The notes beneath the pieces were generated by a model. It saw only the letters and a list, made by a program, of their open reading frames with translations, was not told the DNA's origin and did no database searches. Both the position numbers and the translations under genes were made by a program. Source: Fistulifera solaris (taxonomy: Eukaryota). From it: DNA of 64,000 nucleotides. Numbering within the stretch: position 1 is the stretch's first letter; each line of letters opens with the position of its first letter. The stretch spans positions 558,001 through 622,000 of the forward strand of contig AP026128.1 of the NCBI GenBank assembly GCA_030295235.1, in the 5' to 3' direction. This document shows, one piece after another, positions 13,896 to 53,704 of this stretch.

Positions 13896-13960
13896 CAACC
13901 ATGTGCAATAAAAGAGTGAGGTCGTGTTCCTAGTCCTTTATAGAAAGCAACTGCAAAAAT

Positions 13961-32830: not shown

Positions 32831-33583
32831 GGTAGAATTGTTCTTTTATCAGTTGCTTTTGTCATCGAGGCTGGGTCGGTTTATTACTGAAACAACAATA
32901 TTATACGGCGACATTGCGCCCGCCATTACTTCGTACTGTACGGGTTTTTACTATCGACCCAAAGTGTTAGTTTAAGGAGACCACGACTGCATTTCAGTCA
33001 TGAATCAATAGTCTTTCGAGCGACGGATGTTACCTACAATTCGTTCGATCGCCCAGTTTCTTGCTTTATTTGTCATTGTTGCAATGAAACAGTCTTCAAC
33101 AGTGTTGTCATCATACGTCATTATATTTACGTCGAAGAGCCTTGCGAAACGTTGTCTGCCTTGGTTTTTTACTATGGACCCGAAGTGTTGGTTTACGGAG
33201 ACCACGACTGCATTTCAGTCATGAATCAATAGTCTTTCGAGCGACGGATGTTACCTACAATTTGTTCGATCGCCCAGTTTCTTGCTTTATTTGTCACTAG
33301 CCGCTTACGCGGGCTAGCCCCTGCGGGGGGCAAGAAAGAGGTGTAGGCGATAAAGTAGTTTTGTGAATGTAGTGTAACTGTAAGTGTATTTTTAGTTTAG
33401 ATTGAAATATTTATTGAAAAATCTCTTTGTAGACCACATTTCGAGTAAAAATTTGGTCTTGTGGTAACTGATTTTGGATATAGATGACTTCATCTTGATT
33501 GGCATGGACAAATACTTAAGAAAAGACTGCAAGTATGAATTGTTACTTTCGGCTAGAATCCGTTGCAACTCTTCAAAAATTGA

Positions 33584-34732
33584 TCAATCCATTTCCCGGT
33601 CAGAAGTATTTCCGTCACGCACATGTTGCAATCTGAGCTCTGCTTGAAGGGCAGGATCATAAAAGTATATTTGCAAGCACTTTGGGATTTCATGTTCGGA
33701 AGGAAGTAATGGACCAATACGTCTTACCATCTGTCCTGATATTCTAAAAGCAGACGGCCCACCATGATTCACAGTTTTATCTTCTACTTGAAGAGACGCC
33801 ATAGCCATTCCTGAATTGAATTTTCTTATGTGTTTACGAAAGTATTTACTTCGTGGATCGTCACTTGTCATTAACTTTCGTAAATCAGGTGGCAACTGTC
33901 GGTAAGAAGGTAGCTTGATTTTACCTTGATTGCAACAAAGTTTACCCAAGTGGGGTTTTGCTCGAGTTCCTTTGTTTTCCGATTTAAAGCCAAGCGCCCC
34001 ACAGTAACTACAACAAATATTTTGAGGTCCGATATCGTACGGGGTCACACTTCTTGCATCAAAGGTATCAATATCACAATTTCTTCCAGACATAAAAATA
34101 CGACGATGTCGTGTATTGTTATTTTGTCGTTGCTGCCGGTGTTGCGCATTGTTGTTTTGTCTTTCGTTTTCTCTTTCTTCGGCATTCAAACTTTCTCTTC
34201 GGGCACGATTGCGAGCGCTGTTGTTGCTCCTTTGATGTGCATGGTCTTCCTCATCCAAAGCTTCTCTTCGAGCACGATTGCGGGCGGTATTGTTCCTCCT
34301 TCGGTGCTCTCGCTCTTGCTCATTCAAACTCTCCCTGTGAGCACGCTGTCGCAAAGCATTCTTCAACTTCTGTTCAACTTTTCCGGTTGCTGTTTTTACT
34401 CTTTGACGATACGAACGTTGTCGCAAAGCATTCTTCATCAGTTGATTGTGAAGTTGTGCTGTTGTCTTCGCTCTTTCACGATACGCACGTTGACGCAAAG
34501 CATTCTTCATCAGTCGATTGTGAAGTTGTGCTGTCGTCTTCGCTCTTTCACGATACGCACGTTGACGCAAAGCATTCATCCGTCGCTTGGCTTGTAACAC
34601 ATCATCATCGGCATCACTTCTTGTCAATTTTGATGGTTCGATATATACTTTGTTTATTGCGTTCATCTTTCTTCCGGCATCACTTCTTGTCAATTTTGAT
34701 GGTTCGATATATACTTTGTTTATTGCGTTCAT
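33584..34732 (-). pseudogene. truncated Helitron RepHel N-terminal region (no HUH Rep or Pif1 helicase)
   Basis: CSYCGA..F..E..CC.QGKI.LP zinc-binding motif; FRKHIRKFNS.MAMASL, FRISGQMVRRIGPLLP, PKCLQIYFYDP typical of Helitron N-termini; 24-aa KNALRQRAYRER repeats. Confidence 0.85.
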
Positions 34733-34880
34733 CTTTCTTCTTTCGGTTTTGTGCTATCAAAAGTGCACAAACGCAAAACGCAAAACGAAACGAAAGCGAA
34801 AAGAGCACAAACGCAAAACGGAAGCAAAAAGAGCACAAACGCAAAACGGAAGCAAAAAGAGCACAAACGCAAAACGGAAG
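34340..34880. repeat. internal tandem repeats of the Helitron: 72 bp x4, 66 bp x2, 28 bp x3
   Basis: GCAAAGCATT at 34351/34423/34495/34567; GGCATCACTTC at 34610/34676; GAGCACAAACGCAAAACGGAAG at 34803/34831/34859. Confidence 0.9.
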
Positions 34881-35489
34881 ACTCAGAAACGTCGCATTCG
34901 AAATTCGAAGACCAAGGAAACGTCACTCTACACTTTACTACTACGTACAATTAAATGTAAACTCGACAAAAGAACGTAAACTCGACAAAAGAACACAGAA
35001 CAACCAATGGGAACAAAGCAAACAACACAAAAAACAAAAGGAACGTCAAATCCGTGACTCGGACACCCGGGACCAGCGTTACGTTACGTTACGTGACACA
35101 CACACGGACACAGCGCGCTATTATAAATAGATATAAATAGATTGTTGCAATGAAACAGTCTTCAACAGTGTTGTCATCATACGTCATTATATTTACGTCG
35201 AAGAGCCTTGCGAAACGTTGTCTGCCTTGGTTTTTTACTATGGACCCAAAGTGTTGGTTTACGGAGACCACGACTGCATTTCAGTCATGAGTCATGAATT
35301 CCCGAGCCGTCCGTACATGATACGTGCGATGCTGTACCGTTTACCGCTTTACTTTCTGCAAAAACCCAACAAAAGCTTTTGTTTGCTCCACCGCGATGGA
35401 AACAGACTCGGACGTTCATCACCAAGTGGATCGAATTTACAAGTTTCTTTCATTCCAAATTAAGCAAATTACTCACCAATAATCTCAAA

Positions 35490-36002
35490 ATGTCAGGTAA
35501 GGAATCCGCGTCGAGCGCCGACGCTTGAAGACCGCTAGAAAATCATATCTCACGCTGTTGATTGCTTTCCTCGAAAAAAATGAAAATAGGCAAGGCAAAA
35601 ACAGTTGCAAAGGCTTTGAGCAAGGGAATTTCGAAGAAGGGAACTCGCATTCACACTAAAGTTCACTTCTACAAACCCAAAACTCTTCAACACACGCGAA
35701 AGCCCAAGTATGCCCGAACCAGCGTCCCAAAGAAGAGCACGACGGATAAGTTCGGTATTATCAAGTATCCTTTGACAACAGAATCTTCGATGAAATTGAT
35801 CGAAGACAGCAACACACTGGTTTTCATTGTTGATATCAAAGCCAACAAACGTCAGATCAAGGCGGCTATCCAAGACCTGCACAAAATTGAATGCGAGAAA
35901 GTAAACACTCTCATTACTCCCCGTGGTTTGAAGAAGTGCTACGTCAAATTGACAAAGGATTACGATGCATTGGATGTTGCCAACAGAATCGGAGTAATCT
36001 AA
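35490..36002 (+). CDS. RPL23A: 60S ribosomal protein L23a (uL23)
   Basis: exon 1 ATGTCAG, intron 35497-35589; [38 protein letters not shown]. Confidence 0.97.
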
Positions 36003-36114
36003 AGAATGAATTAGACTTTGATTGAAATTTGTTGCGATCGTATCAAGTGCATGAAGTACTGGTAGTATGTGCGGATATCAAAGTTAATCTGTTGTTATGA
36101 ATACGCCAGAAAAA

Positions 36115-38013
36115 CTACAATCCTTCATCAGTTTCTTTGCGGGCAATCTGATATCCTCGCATCTTGATTACTTCGTCGTCACTCGTTTCGTCTCTGTCGA
36201 AGATCCATCCCTCATTTTTCACTTCTTTGTTGATCGTGATAAGCTCGTCACTTTTCCCCTGTATGACCATAGCACCGTCCAGATCAAGACTTTCGATTAC
36301 GACTGCATCTCCACGAACAATGAGAGTAGAGCGCTTGCTAATCTTTACCTTATCGGGATGAGGAAAAAGGTTTTTCAATTCGCCTGGGCACGTCAAGGAG
36401 CTGGGGTCCAAAACAACAGCCGGTAAAAGGTCAACGTCGATACCCAAATGATTCTCTTTATCGCCTTGTTCCACTCGACATCCAATCGATCGAAGCATCT
36501 TACGGAATGCCCCATACTGGTCGCGTTCGCCGGTGGCTGCCGTACCAGGAGCAATCCCTGCGCTTGCAAAGCTACACCGTCGGGAGTGGCATTCTTCACC
36601 GGTGAAAAGCACAGATCGGCTGGGACGCTCGTGTAACCAACCTTCTTGGCATCTTCTCCTTCCAAAACCGTAGGAAAGTCTTGCATCATACATTCAAGGC
36701 GGGTGGGCTTCTTGAATACAGTTTTGCTTTCGTCCTTGTATTTCGGGTTGACAAATTCCGGCATGATTCCTTTTGTTCGTTCCAGAGCTTTGTGGTACCC
36801 ATCAAGCTGAAAAAGAAGCTGATTGATATTACCTGGAAATGGTGAATACCCCGTTTCTTCGTCATTCACATCACCGTTTGGGCTACCAGTCAGCGCGAAG
36901 AAGAGGGTCGAGTTGGTTGTATTCGACGTTGATTGTTCTACAAAAGTGGAAGTCAGATTGTTGTTCCTCGTGTTGCATCATCTAAGTACTTGTTCGGACT
37001 TACCTCGTCTCGCCCGTTGCTTTGTTTTCTAGCTTTGCAATTCCTCCGATGGCTTGCTTGGCCTTTCTCGGGACTGCCAACGAGTTCATGATCAAGTCCA
37101 TTTTCTTGGACACACCGAGCATCAGTGGAAGCGTGTGAAAAGCTAAACCATTCGTATCCTGAAACAAAATAAGCCATTTAATTCCTTGATCTATCCAATT
37201 TTTTTGCGACACGGTGTCGGTAGAGAAGCTCGTGAATATCACCGTGACCGTGTGGTTTCGTTAACACCTTGAACGGCTCATCGGGATCCCTAGCAATTGT
37301 TGCATCGTTATCCGTAAGAGCAGGAACTCCCTGACCTTGTTGCACAATAGTTATTTGTTCCTTTTCCATGCCAAAATAATTGTTATCCTCCAACAGTTTG
37401 ATAGTTCGATCGTTCGTATCGTTTGAAGTCATTATACACAGCGGAAGTTGCTTTCCGGTGGAGTACTTTGCTGCAAGGACAGGATATAGTTAATGTAATA
37501 CTGCAGGTAGCAAGTCATAGTTGCTGTTTCCGTAGGCAGCGCGATCTGAAAAAACGCAGTGTTAGATAGATCAGAAAAAGGACACCAGTTGAATGGGATC
37601 CTGGAGCTTACCTTGATTCCACTGTATCCGAGTCGTTCGCCAAGCCCACCAGCAACGAGCACAAAACCGATGCAACCAAGTTCCTGCATGCCGATTGCTT
37701 CTGTTTCTTGGTACTCGGTAGTACCAAGTTCAAAGGCTTCTCCTTTCGGTACACTGGGAATCCAACCATCCAGTGGGTTGACTCCATTTCGACTATCCTC
37801 CAACAGTTCTCGGGCTCGCTTTGTATAGCCTAATATTCCGGTCGGATAGGACTCGTCCAATGCTTCCAGTTGACTTGCCAAAGTCTTTCGTGATTCGAGA
37901 CTAGCGTGAGGAAAGTCTTTGAAAAGATGACTTTGCCCTCCCGAATGCAAATTTTGGAGAAGTTCCTGTTGCTTGGGAGATAATTCTTTGATTGACTCTG
38001 CAAAGTCCGTCAT
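36115..38013 (-). CDS. USP: UDP-sugar pyrophosphorylase; several frameshifts
   Basis: FVLVAGGLGERLGYSGIK, KPHGHGDIH, LFQDTN, INVEYNQLDPLLR, YSPFPGNINQL, TRLECMMQDFP; introns 37611-37546 and 37003-36938. Confidence 0.92.
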
Positions 38014-38377
38014 GTTGCTCGTTTATCGATTGAACGTACAAGTGGGGCAAATATCTCGACAAAAGTTTAGCTTTACTTCTCTGTGCCTCTTGCAACGCCA
38101 GGAAACACTCTTTTCGAATCTTTTCTATGGTATTTGATCAAGAAAACGAGTGAGTCGCGTCGAGTGTTTTTATCCTGGTGTGCGTTGCGGACGAGTGCGG
38201 GCGGATGCGGGATGTGGCGGAGGTTTTTTCAACCTCTGCATAAAACTTGTTCATGTCGAATAAGGATCCAAAACCTTCAGAGCTACAACGTGTGATGGTG
38301 ACGTCAAACCGGATGGCATCAAATTAAACTCAAAGTTCTAACCTACTTGTACAGTACGTATCAGCTTTCCATGATTT

Positions 38378-38430
38378 CGTACCACTATAGACTTTAGAGT
38401 AAAGACGTTCGTTTCAGTTTTCAGTCATGA
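38378..38430 (-). repeat. Family A degenerate solo copy
   Basis: reverse complement TCATGACTGAAAA followed about 27 nt later by GTCTATAGTGGTA (box B end). Confidence 0.6.
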
Positions 38431-38490
38431 TGCTGTCTACTGTCTACTCTAGAGAGACTACCTGTACTGTTCAATTGGGACGAATGACGA

Positions 38491-39931
38491 ATGGAAAATA
38501 GAACTCGGAAGCTGGAAAAGAAAAATGCGCACCGAGCACCGAGCACCGAAAAGCTTTTCAGTTTTTCCTGCGTTCATTATGTTCCTTTGGATATTTACTC
38601 GCCTTTCATCTCTCCACCCGTATTTAGAATTCGAGACAAGAGAGGCTTTGACGGGAAATTTGTACCGAACAGGGAACAAATTGCCATCAACAAACAACGG
38701 AGTGGTGAAGAGAAGCATTTGAGACGTCCGATCTGGCTTTTGGCTGCGTCCCTTAACAATGTCCGCTCCATCCCCCACTCTTGTCCTTCTTACGGTGCTA
38801 GTATGTGTGCTCTTCACCGGTTACCAGCGTAAGTGAATCGTGAGAGCTATTATCAAGCGTCACAAAGCGGAATGTGTCAGTGGGTCTGCTTCAATTTTCT
38901 CGCTCTCTGCTGATACCTTTTTCTTTTTAGTTGAGAGAGCAAATGATGCATTAGTTGCGACAACACTGAGAAGAGACGAGTTGTACCCGATTGTCGCCGA
39001 TCAGTGTGAAGCGGATCTAATCCAATTCTGTAGACCATCGCCGCTCAATGCCACTCAGCCTTCCGACGTTGGTGACAGAGCGTTAACGAGCTTGCCTGAG
39101 CTTGAAAGCTTATTACCGGAGTCTTCGTTAAACGACAAACAAGCTGGAGACGCTCCATCGGACCAGCCAGGCGCTGCTCTGATGGTGACCCCGACTCGGC
39201 AGCTCCGCACTACCCCAGTCCACAGCCGCAGTTTGACAGAAGATACGAACTCGGATGGTATCCTATTTCCGTATGAATGTTTGGAGGCGGCTTGGAAAAA
39301 GAATCTCGTTAGTGTGAAATGTAGCACCGCTTTGTTTCAGTTACGAGGCGTTGAAGAGTTGAAGCATCAGCAACAACGCAATTGTGAGACAGCATCCTGG
39401 GTATTCTGGGCCAGTTGGTGTTGGCTTGTTTGCTATTGTGCAGATATTGGTCGCCACTTGTCGATATCGGCGTGCTTTCTTTTCACCTACCGGTTTGTCA
39501 TGTGGGACTTTGTGGTCCAATACCATGGCTACTTCGCTTTCTTATCGTACATCATGGGTTTCGCTACCGGTCACTTCATGACCTTTCTCTTTCTATCTGT
39601 GTTTCTGTTGAACCTGCCCGTGTTCGCGAAAGGGCATGCTAGAAGGCAAGGTGACATCAGCAACGAGGAGGATCAATCCCCAGGCAGCGAACAGGATTGT
39701 ATTACTGGACAAAGTGAAACTCGTGGATGCGCTTGTTGCAAGGCGCCAACTTACTCGGACAATCCATCAGAGCTAGCAGAAAGTTGCTGTGAATGCTGTA
39801 TGGGCTCGGGCGCTTGCCGCGTAGCTTGCGAATCCTGCTGTGACAAAGAATGCTGCAAGACAAGCACTGACGCTACAACCGAGCAAGAAATACTGATTCC
39901 TGCTCTGGTTGTGGGAGAGCGTTCAACATAA
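38491..39931 (+). CDS. hypothetical membrane protein with Cys-rich C-terminus
   Basis: probable intron 38829-38930 (GTAAG..TTTTAG) joins two ORFs; 3-4 hydrophobic segments; CACC..CCECC..C..CESCC..CC tail; start uncertain. Confidence 0.55.
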
Positions 39932-40374
39932 CACGTTGTGGCTGCTTCCTTATGCATGCACAAGGACAAAGAAATAGATGAGTAGCAAAGCATGGCAAGC
40001 CTATCTACAAAAGCAAGTAATTAAAATATGTGCTATTAGCTTCAGCTCCTTTTGCTGTTGAAGAGCACGATATCTTGTCAATCCGACAGAAAACTTGGGA
40101 ACGGACACCCGCAGTTGCCGTCCACGCTTACCTGTTGTTAGAAGTGATGGCGCTCAAAGATGAATTGTAGTGCAGTCAAAGCCTTCCAAACGAATATCAT
40201 TGAACGAAAAGAAAGGAAGATACAGTTTTTGCTTGTATAGTTATAGTCATTTTCTCTATCACATAAAGGATCGGAATGAATCCGGTCAGGACTTATGAGC
40301 TAGCAGCACGATAACTAGTTGCAATTCGTCGCTTTCATTGAAGGACCAAGCAGACGGCAGCTGAACGTATCTGC

Positions 40375-41095
40375 CTATAGAATAATGCACCCGCAATTGT
40401 TCGGCTCGACAGCTTCTTCGCTCACTGCTGGTCGATCGAAGGAAGGTGCCGATTTGACAGTAGGTTTGGAAGCTGACACGGCCTTGGTGGGAGACGGCGG
40501 AGCCGGTGTGGCTGCTGGGGTAACAACAGGCGCAGAGTCTTCCGCTTTTACTTCTTTCACAGCAACTGGAGCGTCAGCTTCTTTTGTAGGAGCGACAGCA
40601 GCAGGTTTGGTCTCTGGTTCATCAACTGGCTCTGGTTCCGGTTCCGGTTGAACCATTGGCTCCGGTTCCGGCTCAGATTCAGGCAGAGCAGGCTCTGGTT
40701 CGGCTTCTGGAACAGCAACTGGCTCTGGTTCGGGTTCGGGGACAGAAACGGGTTCTGGCTCCGGCTCCGAGACAGCGACGGGTTCCGGTTCGGACACAGA
40801 CTCGGGCACGGCAACGGTTTCTGGTTCGGCTACAACCGCAGATTCCGTCTGTGCGGGCTCTTCTGTCGGAACTTCGGCCGCCACCTTGCTATCCGATGCT
40901 TCCGTAATGACTCCCTCATCTTGGGAAGGAATTTCTGGCGTTGTTTCGACCACATCAGACGGTATATCTTCCAAAGTGTCGACCGACTTGATCTCGGTTA
41001 AAGTAGGGCCACTCTCGACCGATTGCGCATCGTTGCCCGGCTTCTTGGCGCCCTTACCTTTGCCTCCTTTTCCTTTTTTTGTTCTTCTTGCCCAT
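40375..41095 (-). CDS. Glu/Pro-repeat disordered protein with basic N-terminus and C-terminal CaaX (CGCIIL)
   Basis: ATG at 41095 gives MGKKNKK if one base is restored in a homopolymer; EPEPEP repeats; ends NNCGCIIL. Confidence 0.7.
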
Positions 41096-41547
41096 TTTAA
41101 AAGATATCCTTCGCTTTCAAGTCGTCGCTGTGCCGATTGACTCACCTCGTAATAAAAATGGTTGCGTTGTCGTTTGTCGATTGATGACACTTGGCGAACG
41201 AACGGCCATCTGCGCAACCATGACCGTGACCAGAGTACACTATGAGATAGAGAGCGCGCGCGATGAAGCTGATGTATAAAACATTTTAACGTCTTTCAAC
41301 GTCCAAAACACATTCATCATAGTCTACAACGAATACAATCGGAAGCGAGCCAGCCTGTCCCTTCCGTTCGTGGTTCGTGACTCGTGACCCACAAGGTGAG
41401 ACGTGACCCGCATTCCCCAAACTCGTGCCACACTCGATCTTTTTCGAAAACAAAAGAACAACAATAACGATAGATTAACTAACATAACAGCGCACTGCTT
41501 CATGTATGGAATGATTGAAACAATAAACGACGACGAGAGGTGAACGG

Positions 41548-43836
41548 ATGAAGCCTATTGCCTTTGTTCGACGTATTTCGGTGTTGTGGTTTCTGTTCAG
41601 CGATCTTCGTTGGACGGATGCATTTCAAATACTAGTGAGATCTTTGTCCGTGGCTCCACGAGAGGTGTCACAAAGGACACGAAGGAAGCTGCTTTTGAAT
41701 GTCAAGAGGCTTGGGGCAGATGATTCATTAACGTCGAACAAAACACAAGCCAACAATTCCTTCCTTTTGGCCGAAAAGACGGAGGAAGATTTCAACGACA
41801 TGTCCGGTTGGGTCACTGGATTGCGTCAATGGCCCTTGATTCCCATAGATATCGAGACGAAGGAAACAAAGTATTACGATTCGTCGAACGAGCAGTCTTC
41901 CGGTGGTTTCCCTTTGACACGGATTCTGAATATGGAAGCACTATTGGCATTTGCGACACGCAAGGGAGAAGAAAGTGAAGTTCCCTCCAAGTTGACGACG
42001 GAAAAAAACGAATTGAATGATGATATCGTAGTTTCTATGGTGACTTCGGTGGAAAACAACACGTCAAACACCTCAAGTGACATACTGGATTTCTCTTTTC
42101 TGGAAGAATTGAGCGCTTGGGACAAGTGGGTCGATGGTCTTCGAGAAAACATTGGAGGTATCCGCAACCAAGGAACGGTACTCAGTCGTTCGAGTGGCTT
42201 TCTGCGGCAGACAACGTCCCGAATCGAGTCTCTTTTGGTAGACGCTTCATCGGTGGTATCACCAAGAACCTTACAGGCCACGTTACGATGGGCGAGCGAA
42301 ACCATTCTCAACCAAACACTGGCGGATCGATTGCTCGAAACGGCCCGTGATATTGCTCTCGATCGTGGTTTAAACATGACAGAGGCAACCGAATCGGCGC
42401 GGGGTACCACGGATTTTACTATCGACCTTGTGACTGTGGCGGATGGAGTTCTGAGAAAAGGATACGTGGAAGGTGATCCTATTCCTCGTAGACGAAACGA
42501 CATTCTTTATGGTATTCCAAGCATTCCTGCATCCCGTGCACTCTTTTCCGACTTTCCGTCGGCGGTCGAGATCAATGTTATGTCACCAGTGATAGTGAAA
42601 GATGCCGAAATGGGAGCGTTGGCAGGAGCTATCTATCAAGAAACGGTACCTAGAACGCAAGCCTTGGGTCAAAATATTGTTGCGCAAGGTGTTTCCGAAG
42701 ACGTCAAATGGATGATCACTGATAGCATTGCAAACGAAACATCATTTACGCTCGCTAAGGGATCAAATGACAAACCATTTCTTGTAAGAACAATAACGAT
42801 TCGGGGTTATGATGCATCCGACGAAGCTGTTGATCGTGAGCGTCTTCTGAACCGCGTGTGTGCAGCGTCGCCGGAGCTGGTGGACGTTGGTGGTGGTGTT
42901 TACTTGCACTCTGGCTTACGAAATATTGCCAAGGCGATTTACAACGACACGAAACAGTACATTGACTGGACAGCTCCCGACTGCAAAATCGTGCTCAATG
43001 GACATTCCATTGGCGGGTCTCTTTCTATTTTGGTTCTATTTGAAATGATTCTAGAAAGAGGATCTGACTATGTCCTGAATAAGATCAAGAAAGTTTATAC
43101 ATACGGGTCTCCACCGATTGCGACATTGGTGACACCTCCCAAAGCACCTCGTCCGGGGGTTTGCTATGTTTTGAATTCCTTTGGTGTACCGTCGTCATTC
43201 GTTTCGTCATACATTCAGCCCTGGGATCCGATTGTTCGACTTTTCTCAGGAATCGATGCATTGTATCCACTGGTTGGAGATCTTGGTACCGATGGTGTTA
43301 CACCATGGGCAAACGGCCCACCCCGCACCTTGCGACCTGTTGTCAAGGCCTTGTTGGAAGCATGGGATGGATGGCCGAGCTTTCGTGCGAATATTCAAGT
43401 AAACTTGAAGCAAAATTATACAATTGTTGGTACTCCGTTCCTTCTTCTACCAGACCCAACTCGCTATCTTGCGGATCGATACTTTTCGGTGAACATTCCA
43501 GTGCCGGCGGTGGAAACGATCCTTCGGTTGTCACCTCATGAAGTATTACCTGCACTTGGCACCCTTTTTGTATTGGACGTTTTCGAATTGAGTTTATTGC
43601 CACAGGCCATCCGTGGATTTGTACATCATTTTTATCCCGCCTACGACAACCCGCTCATCGATTATGCAAGACGGATGTCGCAAAAACCAAAAGAGCCACA
43701 AGTCTCGAGTGTTTCCCTTCTTGAGAAGCAGAAAACTGCCGAATTAGCTGAGCCATTAAGTAAGGTCAAAGTTCCTCCCCGACAGGACAAAACGAGTGGA
43801 TGGCGCGTGGCTACACAATGGTTTCAAGGTGAATGA
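41548..43836 (+). CDS. class-3 lipase (alpha/beta hydrolase) with N-terminal targeting peptide
   Basis: ITIRG, LHSG, VLNGHSIGGSL nucleophile elbow, YTYGSP, DPIVR; TDA-F presequence. Confidence 0.85.
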   Translation: MKPIAFVRRISVLWFLFSDLRWTDAFQILVRSLSVAPREVSQRTRRKLLLNVKRLGADDSLTSNKTQANNSFLLAEKTEEDFNDMSGWVTGLRQWPLIPIDIETKETKYYDSSNEQSSGGFPLTRILNMEALLAFATRKGEESEVPSKLTTEKNELNDDIVVSMVTSVENNTSNTSSDILDFSFLEELSAWDKWVDGLRENIGGIRNQGTVLSRSSGFLRQTTSRIESLLVDASSVVSPRTLQATLRWASETILNQTLADRLLETARDIALDRGLNMTEATESARGTTDFTIDLVTVADGVLRKGYVEGDPIPRRRNDILYGIPSIPASRALFSDFPSAVEINVMSPVIVKDAEMGALAGAIYQETVPRTQALGQNIVAQGVSEDVKWMITDSIANETSFTLAKGSNDKPFLVRTITIRGYDASDEAVDRERLLNRVCAASPELVDVGGGVYLHSGLRNIAKAIYNDTKQYIDWTAPDCKIVLNGHSIGGSLSILVLFEMILERGSDYVLNKIKKVYTYGSPPIATLVTPPKAPRPGVCYVLNSFGVPSSFVSSYIQPWDPIVRLFSGIDALYPLVGDLGTDGVTPWANGPPRTLRPVVKALLEAWDGWPSFRANIQVNLKQNYTIVGTPFLLLPDPTRYLADRYFSVNIPVPAVETILRLSPHEVLPALGTLFVLDVFELSLLPQAIRGFVHHFYPAYDNPLIDYARRMSQKPKEPQVSSVSLLEKQKTAELAEPLSKVKVPPRQDKTSGWRVATQWFQGE

Positions 43837-43916
43837 ACGAGCCTACGATAAACGTTCTACAATATATCACTTCCTGTAACACGTAAAATAATTTTCACTA
43901 TTAGATCACTACTTCT

Positions 43917-44605
43917 TTACGAACTCTTGGATTTCTTCAACTTTGTAAGCAGTCGTCCGACTGCGCTGAAGAATCGCAAACGCTTCGATGGCTTGTACGG
44001 TTGACATTCCGGAAAGGGCAAAGCTTTACCGACACCATAAAAGTAGGCGAATGCACCTCCTAGACCGCCGGTATTCCCAATGCGGCGATCGACCGTGTAA
44101 AAGCCAAACTCCTTGATTTTTCCGTCTTCCGAAAAGTCCATATGCAGCACTTGCGGCGGCAAAATCAACTTTTTTCCGGTGGCCTCAACTCCCATAAAGG
44201 GAGCTTTGTGCACGGATTCGACGCGACTGAAGAACCACACTCGATTGGTTTGCAGAGGATCGACGAGAAATCCAAAAATTGGTTGTCAATATCAAACGAA
44301 TCGGTCAACTTGAAGCTGGCCAACGATTCCAAAAATTCCGTTTTCCCGATAGGCCCAATGACCGGGGCACAAAATTCAAAATCTTCCGCCAAACAATCTC
44401 CATTGTCGACCGTACCGATGGCTATTTCCGGTCCCAAGAGTTCCTTGGCCTTTTGAATCAAATCGGCTGGAGCAATGGGAAATTTGGATTGAGCGAGAAG
44501 GGCGGCTTCGTCCAAGGTCGCTACCGGCGTCGGCTTCACGTTGATGGACGAGAAGGCCCACACGGCTGATGGAAGAAGAGGAAGGATTGTCAAACAGACT
44601 TTCAT
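43917..44605 (-). CDS. plastid-targeted SnoaL/NTF2-like protein (tentative fold); frameshift near 44275
   Basis: VWA-FSS presequence; LAEDFEFCAPVIGP, NRVWFF, ATGKK..LPPQ, GNTGGLGGAF. Confidence 0.6.
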
Positions 44606-45163
44606 GATGTGTAATAACCTTGTGGATTGGCGTCTTTGAAGGATTATTACTCGGAAGATACAATGATAGTCTCGAACGCAATTGTTGCTCGCGCGAAAAC
44701 CTTGTGGAAAATGAGCGAGAGGGAAAAGGGAAAAGAGAAAAGAGAAAAACGCCTGTAATTGGTCTACAGTAACCTTTACAGTACCAAAGCTTTCGAATGA
44801 CGTTGACGTTAGGCGGATGACGTGTCTCACTCGCTCTACTTATTGTACCTGGTACGGTTACAATAGTGGATAAAAAAACGACCTTGAACGAACAAACATC
44901 TCAGATCTAAGGTTTAATAAATCGCTTCATTATTTTAGTTCTTTGTCGATACTCTCTCTACATCCAGACTTCAAAATATTTTGAGATACATTCGTGCTTA
45001 GTCCTATTCCGGGGCAAAATTAACACTGCGTTCCAGTCAAGGAACCATGGCTCGCAAAACGGAAAGAACTTGTCATCTTTACCTTGTAGGATTACGTAAG
45101 GGAGGGAGAAAGCCATGGATTACCGCGTTTCTTCAAAAAGGCGCTAGACCCCACGCAAGCATT

Positions 45164-47228
45164 CTAGCTAAGAGATTGTAAGAATGAACAACCGTTGATG
45201 ACTTTTGTAGTGAGACAAACAATGTGATAGGGAAAACTGGGTCGTTTCGATAAGAACCGAAGAGCGGCCAATTCTGTAAACGTTACACCACCAACGTAAG
45301 TAACAATCAAGACTGGCTTCTTTCCTTTCACTCCGTCGGCTACTTCGGCTTCGGCGAGTGCTCCCAGTGTTCTGCTAGGAGGAGTTTTCAATGCAGAAGA
45401 CAGGTCTCGAGGTGGGCTGTGCTGTTCTACATCGACGATTCTTCCGGGGATTTCACGTAGAATCTCATCTCTTCCATTCCATCCTTTCATCGCCGTCTGG
45501 ATAAGACGCACGCTCAAGGGTGCGTACCCACTGGACACATAGGACACGTCATCGGGTTCTACCGTATCTACCTCTGCATTGATCAGGATCAACGACTTGC
45601 GTAAATTGTTGAACGGGGAAGTCGTGTCAATCCATAGACCGTCCCGCCGGCGAAGTAAACCAGCCTTTTCTAAATTCCCCAAAATGAACAAATATTCATA
45701 TCCGTACGTCTGGATGACATCGCGGCGTAAGCTGTCGTATCGCGAGGACTTAATGCCTCCCGCGCAAAGTGATTGCAAGCACAAAAGTCGAAAAAAAGCG
45801 ATAAGGTGGATATTGACAGGCAACCAGATCGTCCAGCATATCGTAGCACGTATCACCTTCTAAAATAGAACGTTCCATCTGCCACCTTTCTCGAAATGTC
45901 GTCTCTTCGCTTGTATGTTTGACAAGCTCCGCGAGATGTATATGATTCGTCAAAGATCTCAGATTTTGCGTAAAGACAGGGATGTTTTTGACAAATTGGT
46001 GGATTTCGGCCAAGTCTTTCTTCTTGCCCTTGCTAGTAAAGTTGGCATGGGACTCTCGTAAAGCCTTGGCCTGATTTTGAAGGAATGATCCGAACTTCTC
46101 AACATGCTGGTCGCGGACTTCGGCATAGAGAGTGTCTGACCCGTTAACGCCCAGTGAAACGAGTTCCTTCTTCGTTTCCTTCGTTTGGTCTTGCTTGAGT
46201 GCATCGGAATTGTCGTTTGCATCAGAATTAATTGTATTGACATCGAGTGTAATGAATCCACAATCGATTCCTACAACATCATCAAGAAGTCCTTCATACG
46301 TCAATGGGGAAATCATGGGCGTCACCAAATCCACTTTACGATCGATGATAATCAGCGCAGTTACGTCGCCTCCGCTAACCGTTTGTCCCGACTGCTCCTC
46401 GGCACGATCTCTGTCGGCCAAATATTCGTCTACGGTCATACTGGATAGCTTTCGCGCCACTTCCTCGCCAAGTGGTCCATATGCCTGAATGCGAGGTATC
46501 TTGCCGCATACATCTTGCAATTTGAGCAAGCTCCGAGCTACGGTTGTTATGAGAGCACTTGGCGTGCTTTCGACGGCACATTCCCGAAATGCTTCATTGT
46601 ATTCGATCGACAAGACGTCTGTTTCCAGAGGGTATATATCCATCTGCAGGCGATAAATCGAGACATTTGGGGCAGAACTAAGCCCTAGATCTTTCATCAA
46701 TTTGTAAATGATCGCCGTGGGCTGTGGAAGAAAGACGAGTCGATGATGAATTCGAAACGATTTTTTCAAATTCCGAATCCGCTTGGCGACAAGCTGCATT
46801 TGTGAAAGATCCGCTGGTGATAGAAAGTATGTAATGACATCAACATTACCCTCCGTCTCTTCTCCGCCGTGCTCTTGATTCAGAATTTGTGTGCCTACAA
46901 TAGTAATTGATGCTGGTAGAGGGAAAAACAAATGAGCGTCCCAGTTTTTCTTCTTTCCCTGAAACGTTCGCGTATGTGGGTCGGAAAGAACCTGGCGTAA
47001 AAGCAGCGTACGCAAACTTTCTGTTCCAAACACTAAAAGCTGTCGAAAAGAAGACGAAGCAAGCCCTGCTGAAGGATCGGATTGAAGCAGTGTCAAGAGT
47101 TGCTCTTTGTTATCGAGACGGAGCGCCACGGACACTGCTGGCAGCGGATTAAGCGGCGTAGGCGGTGGCAGGATAATTTCAGATTCCTTGTCGGCAACAA
47201 TTCCAGGATTATCCATGTTTGCTAACAT
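45164..47228 (-). CDS. VPS33: Sec1/Munc18 family protein VPS33; frameshift near 45795
   Basis: PLETDVLS, IIIDRKVDLVTPM..LTYEGLLD, LYAEVRD, QTYGYE..L.NLEKAGLL, YV.SGYAPLSVRL, GGVTFTELAALRFL. Confidence 0.92.
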
Positions 47229-47322
47229 TCTAGATACTGTTTTGTTGTTTGTTGTTATGCTTATTGTGCAATGAAAAATGCGGCAGCGTGTCGCGTCTTC
47301 TCACTCCGTATAATCTTTAGTT

Positions 47323-47605
47323 TCCGGGTCCCCTCTGTCGATAAATTTCCTTACGAGGGCTACGTGAAATGCACGTAGGCTTTTCAGGTCGCGCATCTTT
47401 TGTCATTTTTTCTACATTTCGACTTCGACGATGTCGATTACTGATTTCTGGTATCGCTTAGTTGTGTCGGCAATGGTAATGATGGTGTTGATTAGCCGTT
47501 TCACCCGAAAGGGGTGTGGTGAAAATTTGAAATGTCGGGGTGCTAACTACATCGATAAAATCACTACGGAGGCTACTTGATAAGCACGTAGACATTCGAA
47601 GCGTT
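47323..47605 (-). repeat. Family B array, two cores at 214 bp period
   Basis: reverse complement CACGTAGCCCTCGTAAGGAAATTTATCGACAGAGGGGACCCGGA (about 47323-47366) and AACGCTTCGAATGTCTACGTG..GTAGCCTCCGTAG..TTTATCG (47535-47605); GATAAA anchors 47340 and 47554. Confidence 0.85.
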
Positions 47606-47923
47606 AGATCTTCCTTCTTCTTCCCGTGTTATGTTCGAATTGATGTAAAGTATTGCTATTGCTTCTAACGAGCTGTGTTGATGATATTTAAAGTGACTTT
47701 TGCTGAAAAGATACCCACTTATAACTCTCTTGACTAATTGAGGTGATCGAATTTTTTTGAAAGAGTGACGTAAGCATGTATTACGTCAGCATGGCGTCAG
47801 CCTCGCGAAGATTTCGATCTCGGTTTGTCATTCTGACACAGAATGGAGCAACCAGTTTCCACTTTTATACCTTGTGTCTTCCATTGTTTTATTGCTATCC
47901 TTCCCGAACGTCAAACACTCAAC

Positions 47924-48349
47924 ATGAAAGTTCTGAACGTAGTTTCTTCATCCCTCTTGCTAATTGGTGCGGCACATGCCTTTACCGTTCCTTCGAATGG
48001 TTCTCTCCGAACCGAAACAGCTTTGAACGGTCTTTTCGACGGATTCAAAGGTATGGGAAGTGGAAAAGCGGACTTGGACGAGGAATGGAGAAGACAGCAA
48101 GCTTATTTGGCGAATCGTCAGAAGTTACTGAAGGAAGGATATTTCGAAGGGCAGATGGAAGCCAGAATGAACGCCAGAAAAGCCGCCATGGAGAAGTTCA
48201 ATGCTGGCGTCGTCGCTCCTTCACAGGCCGCGAAGGAGGAGGAAGTTAGTCAGCCCGTAAAGAAGCGTGCCTCTGTTGACGAAGAGGTCTTTGTGGACGA
48301 AAGTGCCGACTTTATGGGGGCCTTGAAAAATTTCTTCAAGAAGGAATAA
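47924..48349 (+). CDS. small plastid-targeted hypothetical protein
   Basis: signal peptide AHA-FTVP, transit-like segment, LDEEWRRQQAYLANR helix. Confidence 0.7.
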   Translation: MKVLNVVSSSLLLIGAAHAFTVPSNGSLRTETALNGLFDGFKGMGSGKADLDEEWRRQQAYLANRQKLLKEGYFEGQMEARMNARKAAMEKFNAGVVAPSQAAKEEEVSQPVKKRASVDEEVFVDESADFMGALKNFFKKE

Positions 48350-48690
48350 GCGGTGTGCAGCGAGTGTACTGGAACAAGCTGGGTCGGCTGTTGCAAGAGT
48401 TTCCTTTTATATCCATACTGATATCCTCATGTACGATTTTATCTAATGCGAGGTTTTATAAAGCTCAATGACTTTTCTATGTAAACGAATATCTTCATCG
48501 GTTGATGCAAATAATTGGAAGCGCTAGTAAAACCAATCAAACGGAATCGTAACCAAAGGAACGTGCATTGCAGATTTCGAGAACAACAAGCAAGCTAGTG
48601 GTATATGCCCCATCAAACAAGCCTATGAAGAGTAGGTGTTTTCGTGAAAAGAATGGCATACCCATGGTAAAAGTCGAATACACATAGATG

Positions 48691-48955
48691 TTTCGTGACT
48701 GGAATGCAGTCGTGAAAAAGGTCGCATAGACTTTGGGCTTATAGTCGATTTTTTATGGCGACGTTCGCCAGTCCCCAAGGCTTTTCGACATAAAACATCA
48801 TCGAAGAGTAAATTATCAGCATATCTTCAATGCAGTGTCACTTGTATAAATGAGCAAGAAGAACGGAAAATGATAAGCAGTCCTGTGAAGCATGTTCATG
48901 ACTCATGACTGAAATTTGGTCGTGGCAAAAACGGACAACACTTTGAGCTATAGTC
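48691..48955 (+). repeat. Family A diverged pair, 210 bp apart
   Basis: TCGTGACTGGAATGCAGTCGTG at 48693 with CAAGGCTTTTCGAC box; TCATGACTCATGACTGAAATTTGGTCGTGG at 48896 with CAACACTTTGAGCTATAGT. Confidence 0.8.
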
Positions 48956-49256
48956 GTTTCATTACCGGTAAGTTTTTTGTTGATGGTGACGTGCTTCAAA
49001 CGCAAAAACGTTTTGCGCTTGAAAAGAAAGGTGCGGAATTTTCTAGGACCCTCTTTGGCTGTGTCTTAGAAAACGCTCACCCTTCTAAGCTCTTGTTTGT
49101 CACAAAACGGTCCGTAATGGATTTATGGCGGCTTCGACGCGCGGAGTGAAGCTAATTGGGCCATGTCAAGACGACATCGTCTTGATTTCTTTCCAGAATG
49201 TGCACGCACATTTCTGAAGTATGTGTTCAGCGACATCTGATCCGCCTTCTTCGACC

Positions 49257-50584
49257 ATGGTACTCCGTTCCACGCATACGACCACTCTCTGTGAGCCTGC
49301 GCTAGCGCGACATTGGCAAATGGCCGTCGATAATCCGTCGTGTATCACGCACGAAATTTTTGCACCATGCTTCGACATCACCCTCCTTTGCACGTCGTTC
49401 AAAGTTTGTTGTCATTGAATCGGACGCTGGCTGTTTGTCCGCCGAATGAAGCGACTCCGGCGCTTCATGTCGGCGTGCAAAGCAATTGTGAACTAGCCAT
49501 CATTGCTTGTTTGGTGGAAGCGTGGCCAGAAGGTTTGCTGCGAAAGGCCCCTTGTGGGCGCAGTCAGGTTCGCATGGACCCACTGATGTATGCAAAACTA
49601 TATCGACGCAGTGATTTTCGACTTATTGAGCTCTTGAGTACCAACAATGTGTCAGCGTGCCAGAAGAGCGATTTTGTGACTCTCAATGGATTGTGTCAGT
49701 CCCAGTATTCGACGCTCGTAAACGACTCCTCTAAGGCTACAGAGACAGGAACCGAGAAATCTTTTGCGCCAAGAGTGCAATATGTAAATCATACTTTGAC
49801 TTCTGCCGTCCCTTCGCTGGCTGTCAAGCGATTTACATCTGACTCTGGTGACGACGGCAATGATGCTAGTGCAACGCCGGGCGTTGTGAACGATGAGGTA
49901 AGTCGGCTCGGTGCGAAGCCGATTTATTCACCCCTTATCGAACCTACGTATACCGGTGACAAGATAGACCAAGTCTATCATCAACACATTCATGCTGCGA
50001 TGTCCTACGAACAAGAAATGGCTGAATTGCGAGCTACATGTAAGGGCGTTTTGAGAGAGCATCATCGTCTGGTAGAGCGAGTGAAGATTTTGGAAGATCA
50101 AGACAAAGTGAAGGCTTGCCAATCTAAAGAAAGAAATGAGGCATGGCGTTCAGAGTTAATGTCTTCAGTCGCAATGCAAGTAAACCGGCAACTTTATCAG
50201 CAGTCGAAGGCACTGGAAAAGATTGTGGAGCGTTTGGAGCATGACGTCTTAAGTTCTCACAAGGATACACGTCTACAATCAGAGCTCATGAACAGCAGGA
50301 CATCGCAAACGGAGTTGATGATGTTGTACATGCAGCAGCAAATGGAGGAGAGGTTTCCTGTGGATCGAACACAAGCTCGAAAACGCTCGAACAAACAAAA
50401 AGTACAAGATGAAAAAGATACTGCCGACGATTCTCGCTCACTGCTTCGTGAAGATGAATACCATGACCTTTCGAAAAAGCCTTATCAGTTGGGACACAAG
50501 CGGCGATTTTCAAAAAGGCTTGGCATTTTCTATGTCAGGCATAATTGTGCTCGAAATATTGGCAAGCTTACAGTTCCCTTATAA
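49257..50584 (+). CDS. hypothetical protein with degenerate ankyrin-like N-terminus and coiled-coil C-terminus; frameshift near 49360
   Basis: HPPLHVVQSLL, PALHVGV..IIACLVEAWPEGL; heptad-rich segment. Confidence 0.55.
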
Positions 50585-50682
50585 ATAAAAAGTCAATTTG
50601 AAAAATACCGCTCGAGTCAGGTGTAGCATAATAAAAAAAGAAGTACATTTTAAAATTTCATAAAGATTAGGAGAACTCTAGC

Positions 50683-52055
50683 TTATCTTCCATTGCCAGT
50701 ATTGGCAAGTGGTCGAGTATGGATTTTGCCGGACGATGTTCGACCGACAAGCGCCACCTTCTCTTCCAGCGAAGGAGGTTGCGGGGCATTGTGCAGATGG
50801 ACTTTCATTTGCTTAAGATTCTCCCATTCTACACGCAACAAATTCCATATTGCTCTACGGAAGACTTCCAAAAATTGCGTACACAGAACGAATGAATCCT
50901 CGCTCGGAAACATACTCTTCGAGAAGCGCAACAGCCAACTGAATCGTAGCACTGCGTCCGCCACTAGAATCAATGCCGACATGGCAGCTCCAAACCGGAG
51001 CCTTTGTCGTAGAATGGCACGCCCACAGTTGGTTGCTTTCATTGGATTTTGCATCATTCCCCAGTCCATAACAATATCCCAATACAACGCATAGAGAGCA
51101 TTAATGACCAGGAGAGCTATCAGATAGCTTTCCAGCTCTTGTTCTTTCTTCGGCGAAAGCGTTTTCGAGTATGCAGATAGACAAAGAGGGAAAATACTTG
51201 TCGAATATTTGAGCGCGTTCCAGAGATGTTGGAATCGCTTGGGGTCTCCCTTCAAATAGCCGACTCGATACATGACAAAGCATTGCCGCGCCCGGATGAC
51301 ATAAGGTACCGCTGCTAATGCTGAAGGAATCAGAATGTTTTGAGCAGAAGCCTTCATAGGACCAGGGTTGGAAGCCATGTGTAGCAATATGCCCCAGTCA
51401 AAGAAAACTTTACTCAGTGAACACATGGCATCCGCGAAAAATACATCCACAAACGGAACGGGTCGCGGGGGTATCTTGAATCGGGTGACACAAGACCGGA
51501 ACATCGCGGGTTGAATAGCTCGAATCCACGTTGTAAGACAATGCCAGTAGCTCGCCGTAACCAGTGCAGCGAAGGGAAAGGCAGTGCAATGCTCACGGCG
51601 ACCACCAAGTAGAATGAAAACACCGCCCCGACGGGTCCGCCGTGCAAGCGATCAATCCAAATGAAATATGTGAAATGAAGTAGTAATATCCAAAGAATCG
51701 ACAGCGATACTAATCGAGACCAGGTAATGGAAGAAGCAGATTCGTTCAAGCCCTCCATAATAAAATCTTCGTCACTCAAACCTCCTCCCTCGTCCTCTCC
51801 TGAATATTCATTCATCCCGGAAAATGATCGCATCTCGGTTACTTTCATTTCTTTGGCCGAAATCTCGTCACTGTCGAGATGCATCAAATCGTGCTTTAAA
51901 ACCTTGGCGTAATCAATGCCGAAGAGTCGAAAAAAGTAAATATTCATCCCCCAAAGACCAACGGACGCAATGAGCACCGTCGGACTTCGTAACATGGCGT
52001 GGGCGGGTCCTAGGCCCGGTCCGAACACATCACCAGCTTCTTGTGTAGACGACAT
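50683..52055 (-). CDS. EXS-domain (ERD1/XPR1/SYG1) membrane protein with no SPX domain; frameshift near 51475
   Basis: LWGMNIY.F..FGIDY, V.FVDVFFADAMCSLSKVF, RARQC, HLWNALKYS, YWDIVMDWG, LRFSW, LEVFRRAIWNLLRVEWE. Confidence 0.9.
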
Positions 52056-52275
52056 ATTGTTGTATGCGTTTGTAAGGAAATGAAGTGCTTGTGAAGGATG
52101 AAACAACTACCTCCCTTTTGTCGTTGAAAAACAATTACCTGGTAAAACGCGGAGACGGACACCTCTTGAAAGCAGGATCGTCATTTTCGCCGTTTGTTCC
52201 GCCTTTAGTTTTTTTTTGAATCTCCATCACCGCTCTGTCCTTCCGGTTCTCTCGATTCATACTAAGAAACTTCTT

Positions 52276-53584
52276 ACCCTTTGTTGTTCGGTTCATGACT
52301 CATGACTGCTGTACAATCCAGTCGTGGCGGGCGTAAACCAACACTCCGTTTCATAGTGAAAATTCATTTGTTGTCGATCCTCGTATTTTCGACGTGAAAA
52401 TAAAAGAACAACTTAACAAGTAGTTCATAATCATCATTATTACGACTTTATTTACCCGTAATTATTATTATTAGATTCGCAGTCGAATGACAATGGACGG
52501 ATGCGAGAGACGCATAAACCGGAACCCTTTGTTGTTTGGTTCATGACTACTGTACAATCCAGTCTTGGCTGGCGTAAACCAACACTCCGTTTCATAGTGG
52601 TAATTCAAGGTGGCGATCGTCGGATTTTCGACGTGAAAACAAAAGAAACGCTTAACAAGTAGTTCAGAATCATCATTGTTGCGACTTTATCTACCCGTTA
52701 TCATAACTATATTCGCAGTTGAATGATAATGGACGGATGGGAGAGACGCATAAAACGGAACCCTTTGTTGTTTGGTTCATGACTACTGTACAATCCAGTC
52801 TTGGCTGGCGTAAACCAACACTCCGTTTCATAGTGGTAATTCATTTGTTGTCGATCCTCGTATTTTCGACGTGAAAATAAAAGAACAACTTAACAAGTAG
52901 TTCATAATCATCATTGTTACGACTTTATTTACCCGTAATTATTACTACGTATTATATTCGCAGTCGAATGACAATGGACGGATGGGAGAGACGCATAAAA
53001 CGGAACCCTTTGTTGTTTGGTTCATGACTACTGTACAATCCAGTCTTGGCTGGCGTAAACCAACACTCCGTTTCATAGTGGTAATTCATTTGTTGTCGAT
53101 CCTCGTATTTTCGACGTGAAAATAAAAGAAACTCTCAACAAGTAGTTCACAATCATCTTTGTTGCGACTTCATTATTTACCCGTAATTATTATTATTAGA
53201 TTCGCAGTCGAATGACAAATAGACGGATGCGAGAGACGCAAAACGGAACCCTTTGTTGTTCGGTTCATGACTACTGTACAATCCAGTCTTGGCTGGCGTA
53301 AACCAACACTCCGTTTCATAGTGGTAATTCATTTGTTGTCGATCCTCGTATTTTCGACGTGAAAATAAAAGAAACTCTCAACAAGTAGTTCACAATCATC
53401 TTTGATACGACTTCATAATTTACCCGTAATTATTACTACGTATTATATTCGCAGTTGAATGACAATGGACGGATGCGAGAGACGCATAAAACGGAACCCT
53501 TTGTTGTTCGGTTCATGACTACTGTACAAAATCCAGTCTTGGTCGGCGTAAACTAACACTCCGTTTCATAGTGAAATTTCAAGG
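52276..53584 (+). repeat. Family A-related tandem array, about 5.3 units of 236-248 bp
   Basis: TCATGACT at 52300, 52541, 52777, 53022, 53265, 53513; units near-identical apart from indels and one swapped segment. Confidence 0.97.
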
Positions 53585-53704
53585 ATGATTCACGAAAAGA
53601 GCCGCGTATCGGCCGCTTTAATTTGACAATACTGGTACAGTATCAAAAACATTTGTTATCATCTCGACTGTTGCTTTCCAAAGTATTGCATATTAAAAAG
53701 AGAA

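What the first reader, a model, noticed from the sequence alone, without database searches (positions are those of the whole stretch)
32943..53584. Two different-looking tandem arrays (221 bp and ~243 bp) share one core and the same end signatures
Seen: the 33-35 kb array read on the minus strand has CAGTCGTGG-TCTC-CGTAAACCAACACTTCGGGTCCATAGT. The 52-53 kb array has CAGTCKTGG-CKGG-CGTAAACCAACACTCCGTTTCATAGT. Beyond box C I cannot align the units by eye. In both arrays the first core carries a doubled TTCATGACTCATGACT (35298-35283 and 52292-52307; also seen at 48895). In both, the array stops shortly after box B, and only the last core has AAACTAACACT instead of AAACCAACACT. Inference: the arrays are polar and are built as n spacers between n+1 cores, like TRIM tandem arrays, cassette arrays or rolling-circle concatemers with exchangeable cargo. 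Caveats: only two arrays, and the 52 kb array starts about 16 bp before box A.
Basis: partly seen in the sequence, partly recalled or inferred. Interest (0 to 1): 0.75.

Follow-up and report, generated by a model that had tools for sequence, protein, structure and literature searches.

The report
Polar diatom repeat arrays, Helitron2-like
The two arrays belong to a large, old family of ~220-base non-coding repeats lying between genes of a diatom-like alga, which most likely spread as small non-coding passengers of a rolling-circle transposon; the one-way layout is real, but the two 'end signatures' and the idea of exchangeable cargo do not hold.

Summary
Both arrays and the shared core are real. 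They are two young subfamilies (F1, F2) of a genome-wide superfamily: 902 exact hairpin-core matches against 0 for the control, and 41 spacer clusters among 198 spacers. The 33-35 kb 'array' is three cores with a 1,845-bp Helitron1 in its first spacer.

Polarity holds. Arrays tend to start at the hairpin and end after a distinct last core; a fixed F2 tail follows 15 of 47 last cores and 0 of 135 others. The proposed signatures fail: the duplication is first-core-only in 1 of 12 arrays, and C>T is not enriched in last cores (p=0.35). Spacers are mostly diverged homologues (16 of 28 families), not cargo.

F2 has a 5' hairpin, an inverted copy of its arm near a fixed 3' end finishing in ATTTT, and variable 5' ends that carry flanking DNA. 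These resemble Helitron2/HINE non-autonomous elements with multiple 5' termini. No autonomous partner, clean empty site or target duplication was found, so membership is unproven. Both window arrays are absent from the homoeologous contig, while older cores are shared. This scan noted the same superfamily earlier on other DNA of this genome.

The parts
35237..35298 (-). F1 first core: doubled box A, 9-bp hairpin with 5-nt loop, linker, box B ending ATAGT
33297..35141 (-). 1,845-bp Helitron1 insertion (5' TC, 3' hairpin then CTAG, between A and T) splitting the first F1 spacer; a neighbour, not part of the repeat
   Evidence: (comparison with the uninterrupted spacer)
33584..34753 (-). Truncated Helitron Rep-helicase N-terminal reading frame (389 aa stop to stop) inside the insertion
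   Evidence: 7 of 10 homologues carry PF14214, 3 of them also PF05970; no Pfam hit of its own
33005..33225 (-). One intact 221-bp F1 unit: core 2 (33225-33171), box C, spacer
32942..33004 (-). F1 last core (AAACTAAC variant), no box C; homology ends about 8 bases after ATAGT
48692..48960 (+). Old two-core, one-spacer member of the superfamily; the duplication is on the second core; present at the same place on the homoeologous contig
52276..53581 (+). F2 array: six cores (box A at 52293/52300, 52541, 52777, 53022, 53265, 53513), periods 236-248 bp; starts about 17 bases before box A; absent from the homoeologous contig
53570..53600 (+). Truncated F2 3' tail with an inverted copy of the box-A arm at 53587-53596 (candidate 3' asymmetric inverted repeat); the ATTTT end seen in other copies is missing here
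13960..14153 (+). Old eroded cores of the same superfamily (outside the finding's coordinates); the first is shared with the homoeologue
19891..19922 (-). Old hairpin-only core
24346..24375 (+). Old hairpin-only core; a partial core lies at the matching place on the homoeologue
56786..56848 (+). Old core; the homoeologue keeps core-spacer-core here, the window has lost the spacer by an imprecise deletion

Best explanation
A lineage-specific superfamily of non-autonomous, non-coding mobile repeats that works like Helitron2/HINE rolling-circle passengers. Shown: each ~200-250-bp unit starts with a hairpin core; units stack head to tail; a distinct last core is followed, in F2, by a fixed 3' end; 5' ends vary and can carry upstream DNA; young subfamilies expanded in one subgenome. 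Inferred: the hairpin core is a 5' terminus (5' inverted repeat folded on itself), so an array is an element with several 5' termini and one 3' terminus, built by self-insertion or local unit duplication. Copying is anchored at the 3' end and often stops at one of the hairpins, which gives the n+1-core look. The 7-bp duplication is recurrent stutter at the foot of the hairpin, carried along when a unit is amplified. The enzyme would be an HUH Rep-helicase that is now lost, broken or undetected.
For: Polarity and register. F2 tail only after last cores, 15/47 vs 0/135, p=2e-10. The tail holds an inverted box-A arm (8-10 of 10 matches in 5 true tails; shuffle p 0.0005-0.11, about 0.01 for the common form), then an A-tract/T-tract fold-back in 3 of 5 folded copies, ending ATTTT. 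Fungal Helitron2 elements start TCAG with a 5' hairpin, end ATTTT, insert between TNAT and T and can have multiple 5' termini with one 3' terminus (PMC5148889, passages); here the base before the core is T in 257/351 cores and TNAT in 81/351. Helitron2 elements of Chlamydomonas are 3'-intact and 5'-truncated, sometimes with extra 5' DNA (PMC3627910, section 8); F2 copies likewise carry variable lengths of an upstream MITE. The hairpin tolerates G-T but rarely A-C pairs on the core strand. Young arrays are missing from homoeologous sites, so they moved.
Against: No autonomous partner: PF14214 and PF05970 gave no match in the genome (the first is inconclusive by its own control) and 0 of 260 flanking reading frames had a transposase, RT or recombinase domain. 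The inverted arm is seen only in F2: 9 of 156 arrays have one within 400 bp downstream, 7 of them F2, vs 2 upstream. F1 tails lead instead into a separate CAGAAATTCTG-type repeat family. The inverted-arm match is short and F2 tails are not independent. The commonest F2 junction is CGGT, not TNAT. No clean empty site in 10 comparisons, so the target site is untested. The G-T pattern is equally explained by CpG decay, and there is almost no compensatory change.
Confidence: 0.5

Rival explanations
1. Dispersed satellite-like repeat with no dedicated enzyme: the hairpin is a break or slippage hotspot, units amplify locally, and blocks are copied to new intergenic sites by double-strand-break repair or gene conversion, dragging neighbours along.
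For: All 10 homoeologue comparisons show replacement of 44-1,170 bp instead of a clean insertion; copies are mosaics with MITE, Helitron1 and other repeat pieces; no partner enzyme found.
Against: Does not by itself explain one fixed 3' end ending ATTTT with an inverted arm, nor strict core-tail polarity; replacement may reflect later turnover, since four-fold sites of the two subgenomes are only 80% identical.
Confidence: 0.22
2. Retro-mobilised repeat (SINE-, Penelope/retrozyme- or TRIM-like): units are transcribed and reverse-transcribed by target priming, giving fixed 3' and truncated 5' ends.
For: 3'-fixed and 5'-variable ends fit target-primed reverse transcription; 26 RT matches exist in the genome; animal retrozymes are tandem, intergenic and non-autonomous (bioRxiv 10.64898/2026.07.22.740005, abstract only).
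Against: No Rfam match at gathering score in the window and none credible at E<=10 on the F2 array; no tRNA; almost no covariation; F2 internal cores do not fold better than shuffles; no A-tail, and no target duplication in 12 tailed copies tested, best common word 4-7 low-complexity bases; the one RT locus fetched holds no core.
Confidence: 0.12
3. The core is primarily a host cis-regulatory or chromatin element, a palindromic factor site plus a second box at fixed spacing, kept in promoter regions by selection; arrays are a by-product.
For: Arrays avoid convergent gaps, 3 of 122 vs 22 of 130 background gaps (crude gene calls; 43 arrays had no called flank); hairpin arms are 90% identical between homoeologues vs 80% at four-fold sites and 74-77% in linker, spacer and flank; the box A-box B linker is 12-13 bp in 64 of 71 cores.
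Against: The conservation figure is inflated because pairs were picked by having a detectable core on both sides; no strand preference in tandem gaps, 40 vs 29, p=0.23; neighbours are unrelated housekeeping genes; young arrays are missing at homoeologous genes. Promoter bias is common for mobile DNA (own knowledge). Compatible with the best explanation as a later role.
Confidence: 0.1
4. Integron-like cassette system: the core is a tyrosine-recombinase site (two arms around a short spacer) and spacers are exchangeable cassettes.
For: n+1 layout; a few mixed arrays (5 of 31 arrays with two or more clustered spacers); inverted arms around a short spacer resemble YR sites, and Cryptons occur in diatoms (PMC3212892, passages).
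Against: Spacers are mostly diverged homologues; the most active subfamily F2 has a longer loop and a mismatch in the arm; loop sequence varies; the one unit loss seen against a homoeologue is imprecise; no recombinase among 260 neighbours; I did not run a genome-wide YR search.
Confidence: 0.04

Closest known systems
Helitron2-type elements: FoHeli1/2 of Fusarium oxysporum (PMC5148889, passages read) and Helitron2/CRe-1,2,3 of Chlamydomonas (PMC3627910, passages and section 8 read)
   Same: 5' hairpin starting TCA; short inverted copy near a fixed 3' end followed by a fold-back; ATTTT end; several 5' termini with one 3' terminus; 3'-intact, 5'-truncated copies with extra upstream DNA.
   Different: No Rep-helicase partner found; 3' features shown only for subfamily F2; repeated 5' parts are whole ~220-bp units, up to 13 in a row, and have diverged into dozens of families; target site not resolved.
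DTC84 / pearl-type elements with internal tandem repeats of the clam Donax trunculus (PMC3879986, passages read)
   Same: Short ordered arrays, a fixed terminal variant, a truncated first repeat, and a palindrome in a conserved segment at the unit junction.
   Different: No microsatellite module, no constant left flank, no AA target duplication seen; one core is shared across many unit families.
HINE/DINE-1 Helentron derivatives: Cg_HINE of oyster (PMC7492417) and mite HINEs (PMC4067079), passages read
   Same: Dispersed arrays mostly of 2-6 units near genes, constant orientation to the flanks, T-rich boundary at the F2 3' end, consecutive arrays of different units.
   Different: There the hairpin and inverted repeat belong to the flanks and the monomers are often unrelated; here every monomer carries the hairpin. 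No 11-15-bp perfect subterminal repeat pair was found.
TRIM tandem arrays and non-LTR retrozymes (TRIM features recalled; retrozymes from search listing and one abstract)
   Same: n+1 repeated cores around n internal parts; tandem 150-400-bp units.
   Different: Cores in a unit pair often differ, no target duplication, no ribozyme or tRNA match.

Membership tests
Helitron2/Helentron (HINE) | 5' hairpin formed by the 5' asymmetric inverted repeat, element starting with T | tested here: met
   Box A hairpin starts each unit; pairs 5-8 invariant in 71 non-redundant cores (partly set by the search pattern); arrays start near it
Helitron2/Helentron (HINE) | 3' asymmetric inverted repeat 20-60 bp from the end, just before a hairpin | tested here: inconclusive
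   Present in F2 tails (8-10 of 10 matches, p about 0.01 for the common form); not found in other families
Helitron2/Helentron (HINE) | T-rich target without target duplication | tested here: inconclusive
   F2 3' ends finish in a T-run and no duplication was found in 12 copies, but no clean empty site exists in 10 comparisons
Helitron2/Helentron (HINE) | Autonomous Rep-helicase element with the same termini | tested here: inconclusive
   No PF14214 or PF05970 match in the genome (exon-wise, lower bounds); only Helitron1 fragments with other ends
Helitron2/Helentron (HINE) | Circular DNA intermediate with joined ends | not testable with these tools
   Only assembled contigs were available
Helitron1 | 5' TC, 3' hairpin plus CTRR, A|T target | tested here: not met
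   Met by the 1,845-bp insert, not by the repeat units or F2 tail end
TRIM / LTR-type | Near-identical terminal repeats and a 4-6-bp target duplication | tested here: not met
   Last core is a different type; no duplication found
TRIM / LTR-type | Primer-binding site and polypurine tract | not tested
   Not searched
Retrozyme / self-cleaving ribozyme repeat | Known ribozyme motif with covarying structure | tested here: not met
   No Rfam match; almost no compensatory change. An unknown ribozyme class cannot be excluded
Integron-like / Crypton YR system | Precise excision at a fixed crossover with unrelated cargo | tested here: not met
   Imprecise loss at 56.8 kb; spacers homologous in 16 of 28 families
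TIR element (MITE, foldback) | Cores arranged as inverted termini | tested here: not met
   276 direct, 9 convergent, 7 divergent neighbour pairs

The most novel reading that the evidence does not exclude
A diatom rolling-circle enzyme uses the hairpin core as a reusable docking and initiation site, so that diverged units insert at each other's termini and build mixed, ordered arrays; thousands of old cores left in promoter regions were then kept by the host as a cis-element, with subfamilies active in only one parent of the hybrid genome.
Probability: 0.12. Interest if true: 0.72.

Novelty: new variant of a known kind. Interest (0 to 1): 0.4.

Why it matters
If the Helitron2-like reading is right, this is a case of rolling-circle passengers seeding short satellite-like arrays in a compact diatom genome, something I found described for bivalves, mites, flies, fungi and a green alga but not diatoms. 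The two subgenomes give a built-in clock: old cores are shared, young subfamilies are one-sided, which makes birth, decay and possible domestication of the core testable in one assembly. It also matters for annotation: several thousand cores sit mostly upstream of genes. It is not a cassette or ribozyme system on present evidence.

Tried and rejected
Rfam and ARAGORN: nothing credible. RNA: no RNA holder listed by record; two runs with spliced, poly(A) contigs had no cover over the F2 array or the 48.7-kb pair, which is no evidence either way. The DNA runs looked like the same genotype and showed no empty site in the rows displayed. Outside this genome: the full core pattern gave 0 hits in metagenome and viral contigs (own-genome records may be left out); the hairpin alone gave 24 hits, none with box B, consistent with chance. 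The Helitron1 family as a dedicated carrier or targeter: 3 of 20 sampled 5' ends (of 50) have a core within about 110 bp upstream, in mixed orientation; rejected, although older Helitron 3' ends abut some F1 tails. Cores as TIRs: rejected. Protein-coding repeat: rejected by eye, since lengths vary by non-multiples of three. Partner search: PF14214, PF05970 (none), RT (26 matches, 1 locus checked, no core), 260 neighbouring frames (none mobile). Homoeologue fetches missed for L115, L126, L062 and L124, so these were left out. In one search one cluster (f6, an opposite-strand artefact) was dropped; two of seven rows were leader matches, not tails, and were dropped. A genome-wide tyrosine-recombinase search was not run. 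Supplements of the cited papers were not read; they may hold terminal alignments relevant to membership.
Full report
Setting. The window is G000:C13:558001-622000 of a 51.7-Mb, 62-contig eukaryotic assembly with compact, diatom-like genes. Earlier AI notes name the species; I did not test that. The genome holds pairs of related contigs: C13/C14, C1/C2, C11/C12 and C36/C37, 80% identical at four-fold sites. I use them as homoeologues.

Observation. The core, the doubled box A at 35298, 52292 and 48895, and the AAACTAAC variant in each last core are in the sequence as stated. The 52-53 kb array (F2) has six cores at 236-248 bp. The 33-35 kb array (F1) has three cores; its first spacer is split by a 1,845-bp insert at 33297-35141 that begins TC, ends hairpin-CTAG and lies between A and T, and whose reading frame has homologues with Helitron domains. 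Removing it restores the 221-bp period. Five further loci in the window carry older cores.

A superfamily. Exact genome counts are 358 for the box-B 14-mer (control 5), 902 for the hairpin (control 0) and 131 for the duplication (control 0). A profile found 338 cores in 95 sequences, with spacing concentrated at 200-250 bp; of 124 arrays, 38 were single and 41 had two cores. A rough density from 330 kb, partly chosen for cores, suggests several thousand cores. The core is a 9-bp hairpin with a 5-nt loop, a 12-13-bp linker (64 of 71), box B, and box C about 30 bases on. The 198 spacers form 41 clusters; most arrays are uniform, 5 of 31 multi-spacer arrays are mixed. Leave-family-out profiles detect homology beyond box C in 16 of 28 families, so the spacers are mainly diverged descendants of one unit; F2 is among those not detected.

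Testing the signatures. In 47 arrays of two or more box-B-type cores (F2 plus about 11 others), the duplication is in 7/47 first, 30/88 middle and 9/47 last cores and is first-only in 1 of 12 arrays, the window's own; C>T is in 9/47 last vs 18/135 other cores, p=0.35. In F1 the duplication is in 5/19 first, 10/35 middle and 0/19 last cores. The signatures therefore fail. Polarity itself holds: F2 5' ends lie near box A in 26/37 and 3' ends just past box B in 28/37 arrays; F1 5' ends in 21/34, and 19/34 F1 alignments stop after the hairpin of a different last core (selection of loci inflates these). A specific tail follows 15/47 last cores and 0/135 others; box C follows 11/47 last and 115/135 other cores.

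The ends. F2 copies share a 3' tail: an inverted copy of the box-A arm about 20 bases after box B, an A-tract, and a conserved end followed by a T-run. The arm match is 8-10 of 10 in five tails, with shuffle p of about 0.01 for the common form, and the A- and T-tracts fold back in 3 of 5 copies. In the window this tail is cut after the inverted arm. F2 5' ends vary: many carry different lengths of a leader that is a diverged unit plus the left part of an ~880-bp TTAA-flanked MITE, and some composites with other units recur. F1-like arrays have another tail (23 exact copies, most within about 120 bases of a core) that runs into a separate repeat family, and show no inverted arm. No target duplication was found in 12 tailed copies.

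Age and movement. Both window arrays are absent from C14, which has 165 bp and about 1.17 kb of other sequence instead, while cores at 13960, 24346, 48689/48899 and 56786 are shared. Eight more young arrays on C1 are absent from C2, with 44-459 bp of other sequence in place. No site is a clean empty site. The first 100 exact box-B hits lie on C1, C3 and C5, none on C2 or C4, and the young Helitron1 family shows the same one-sidedness, so both expanded in one parental lineage. That Helitron is a neighbour only: 3 of 20 sampled 5' ends have a core close by.

Mechanism. The F2 anatomy matches published Helitron2 termini: a 5' inverted repeat folded into a hairpin, a 3' copy just before a terminal hairpin (PMC3627910, passages), a TCAG start, ATTTT end, TNAT|T target and multiple 5' termini with one 3' terminus (PMC5148889, passages), and 3'-intact, 5'-truncated copies (PMC3627910 section 8). 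Here the base before the core is T in 257/351 and TNAT in 81/351 cores. DTC84 of a clam has the same ordered arrays with a fixed terminal variant and a junction palindrome (PMC3879986, passages), and oyster HINEs carry similar short arrays (PMC7492417, passages). I therefore read the arrays as non-autonomous rolling-circle passengers (confidence 0.5). Against this: no partner enzyme, 3' features only in F2, a short match, and no resolved target. The duplication as stutter at the hairpin foot is inference; the Helitron1 5' ends in this genome show similar short repeats in about half of 26 copies.

Rivals. Repair- or conversion-driven spread (0.22) fits the replacement-type junctions and mosaics but not the fixed tail. 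Retroposition (0.12) fits the asymmetry but lacks RNA-family matches, covariation, A-tails and duplications. A host cis-element (0.10) is suggested by avoidance of convergent gaps, 3/122 vs 22/130, and by arm identity of 90% vs 80% at four-fold sites, but that comparison is biased by ascertainment and there is no strand preference (40 vs 29). A recombinase cassette system (0.04) is weakened by homologous spacers and an imprecise unit loss.

Novelty. I found no description of this family or of Helitron2-like arrays in diatoms in five paper searches (listings only), and no full core outside this genome. The architecture is known from other groups. Verdict: real, polar, mobile, new variant of a known kind; interest 0.4.

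Noticed in passing
window 47350-47586: Another high-copy ~230-bp repeat; DNA contigs show joints that skip it and depth about 50 times the background. Probably a MITE.
   Followed up: no
window 12429-12700: 34-bp tandem array built on a CCCAGAAAA(T/A)(C/G)TGGG-type hairpin; the same motif family forms its own arrays elsewhere and follows some F1 tails.
   Followed up: partly
L166-L168, L175, L177: ~880-bp MITE with 29-bp terminal inverted repeats flanked by TTAA (piggyBac-like target, recalled); its left part is the F2 leader.
   Followed up: partly
G000, 50 places; window 35141: Young non-autonomous Helitron1 family, almost confined to one contig of each pair, with short repeats of its first bases at the 5' end and one tandem pair at C3:779553/779800.
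   Followed up: partly
L154, L106, L062, L101, L119: Older Helitron 3' ends abut F1 tails or first cores in opposite orientation; in L119 and L101 on both sides of the array, so some F1 arrays may have been carried as Helitron cargo.
   Followed up: partly
window 34176-34994: Internal 66-72-bp, 28-bp and 19-bp tandem repeats in the Helitron insert, partly encoding a basic repeat at the start of the Rep-helicase frame.
   Followed up: no
window 2016-13822: Cluster of about seven related multi-membrane-span genes in both orientations.
   Followed up: no
window 29332-29967 and 32261-32845: Two related small genes without Pfam match for the second, in opposite orientation.
   Followed up: no
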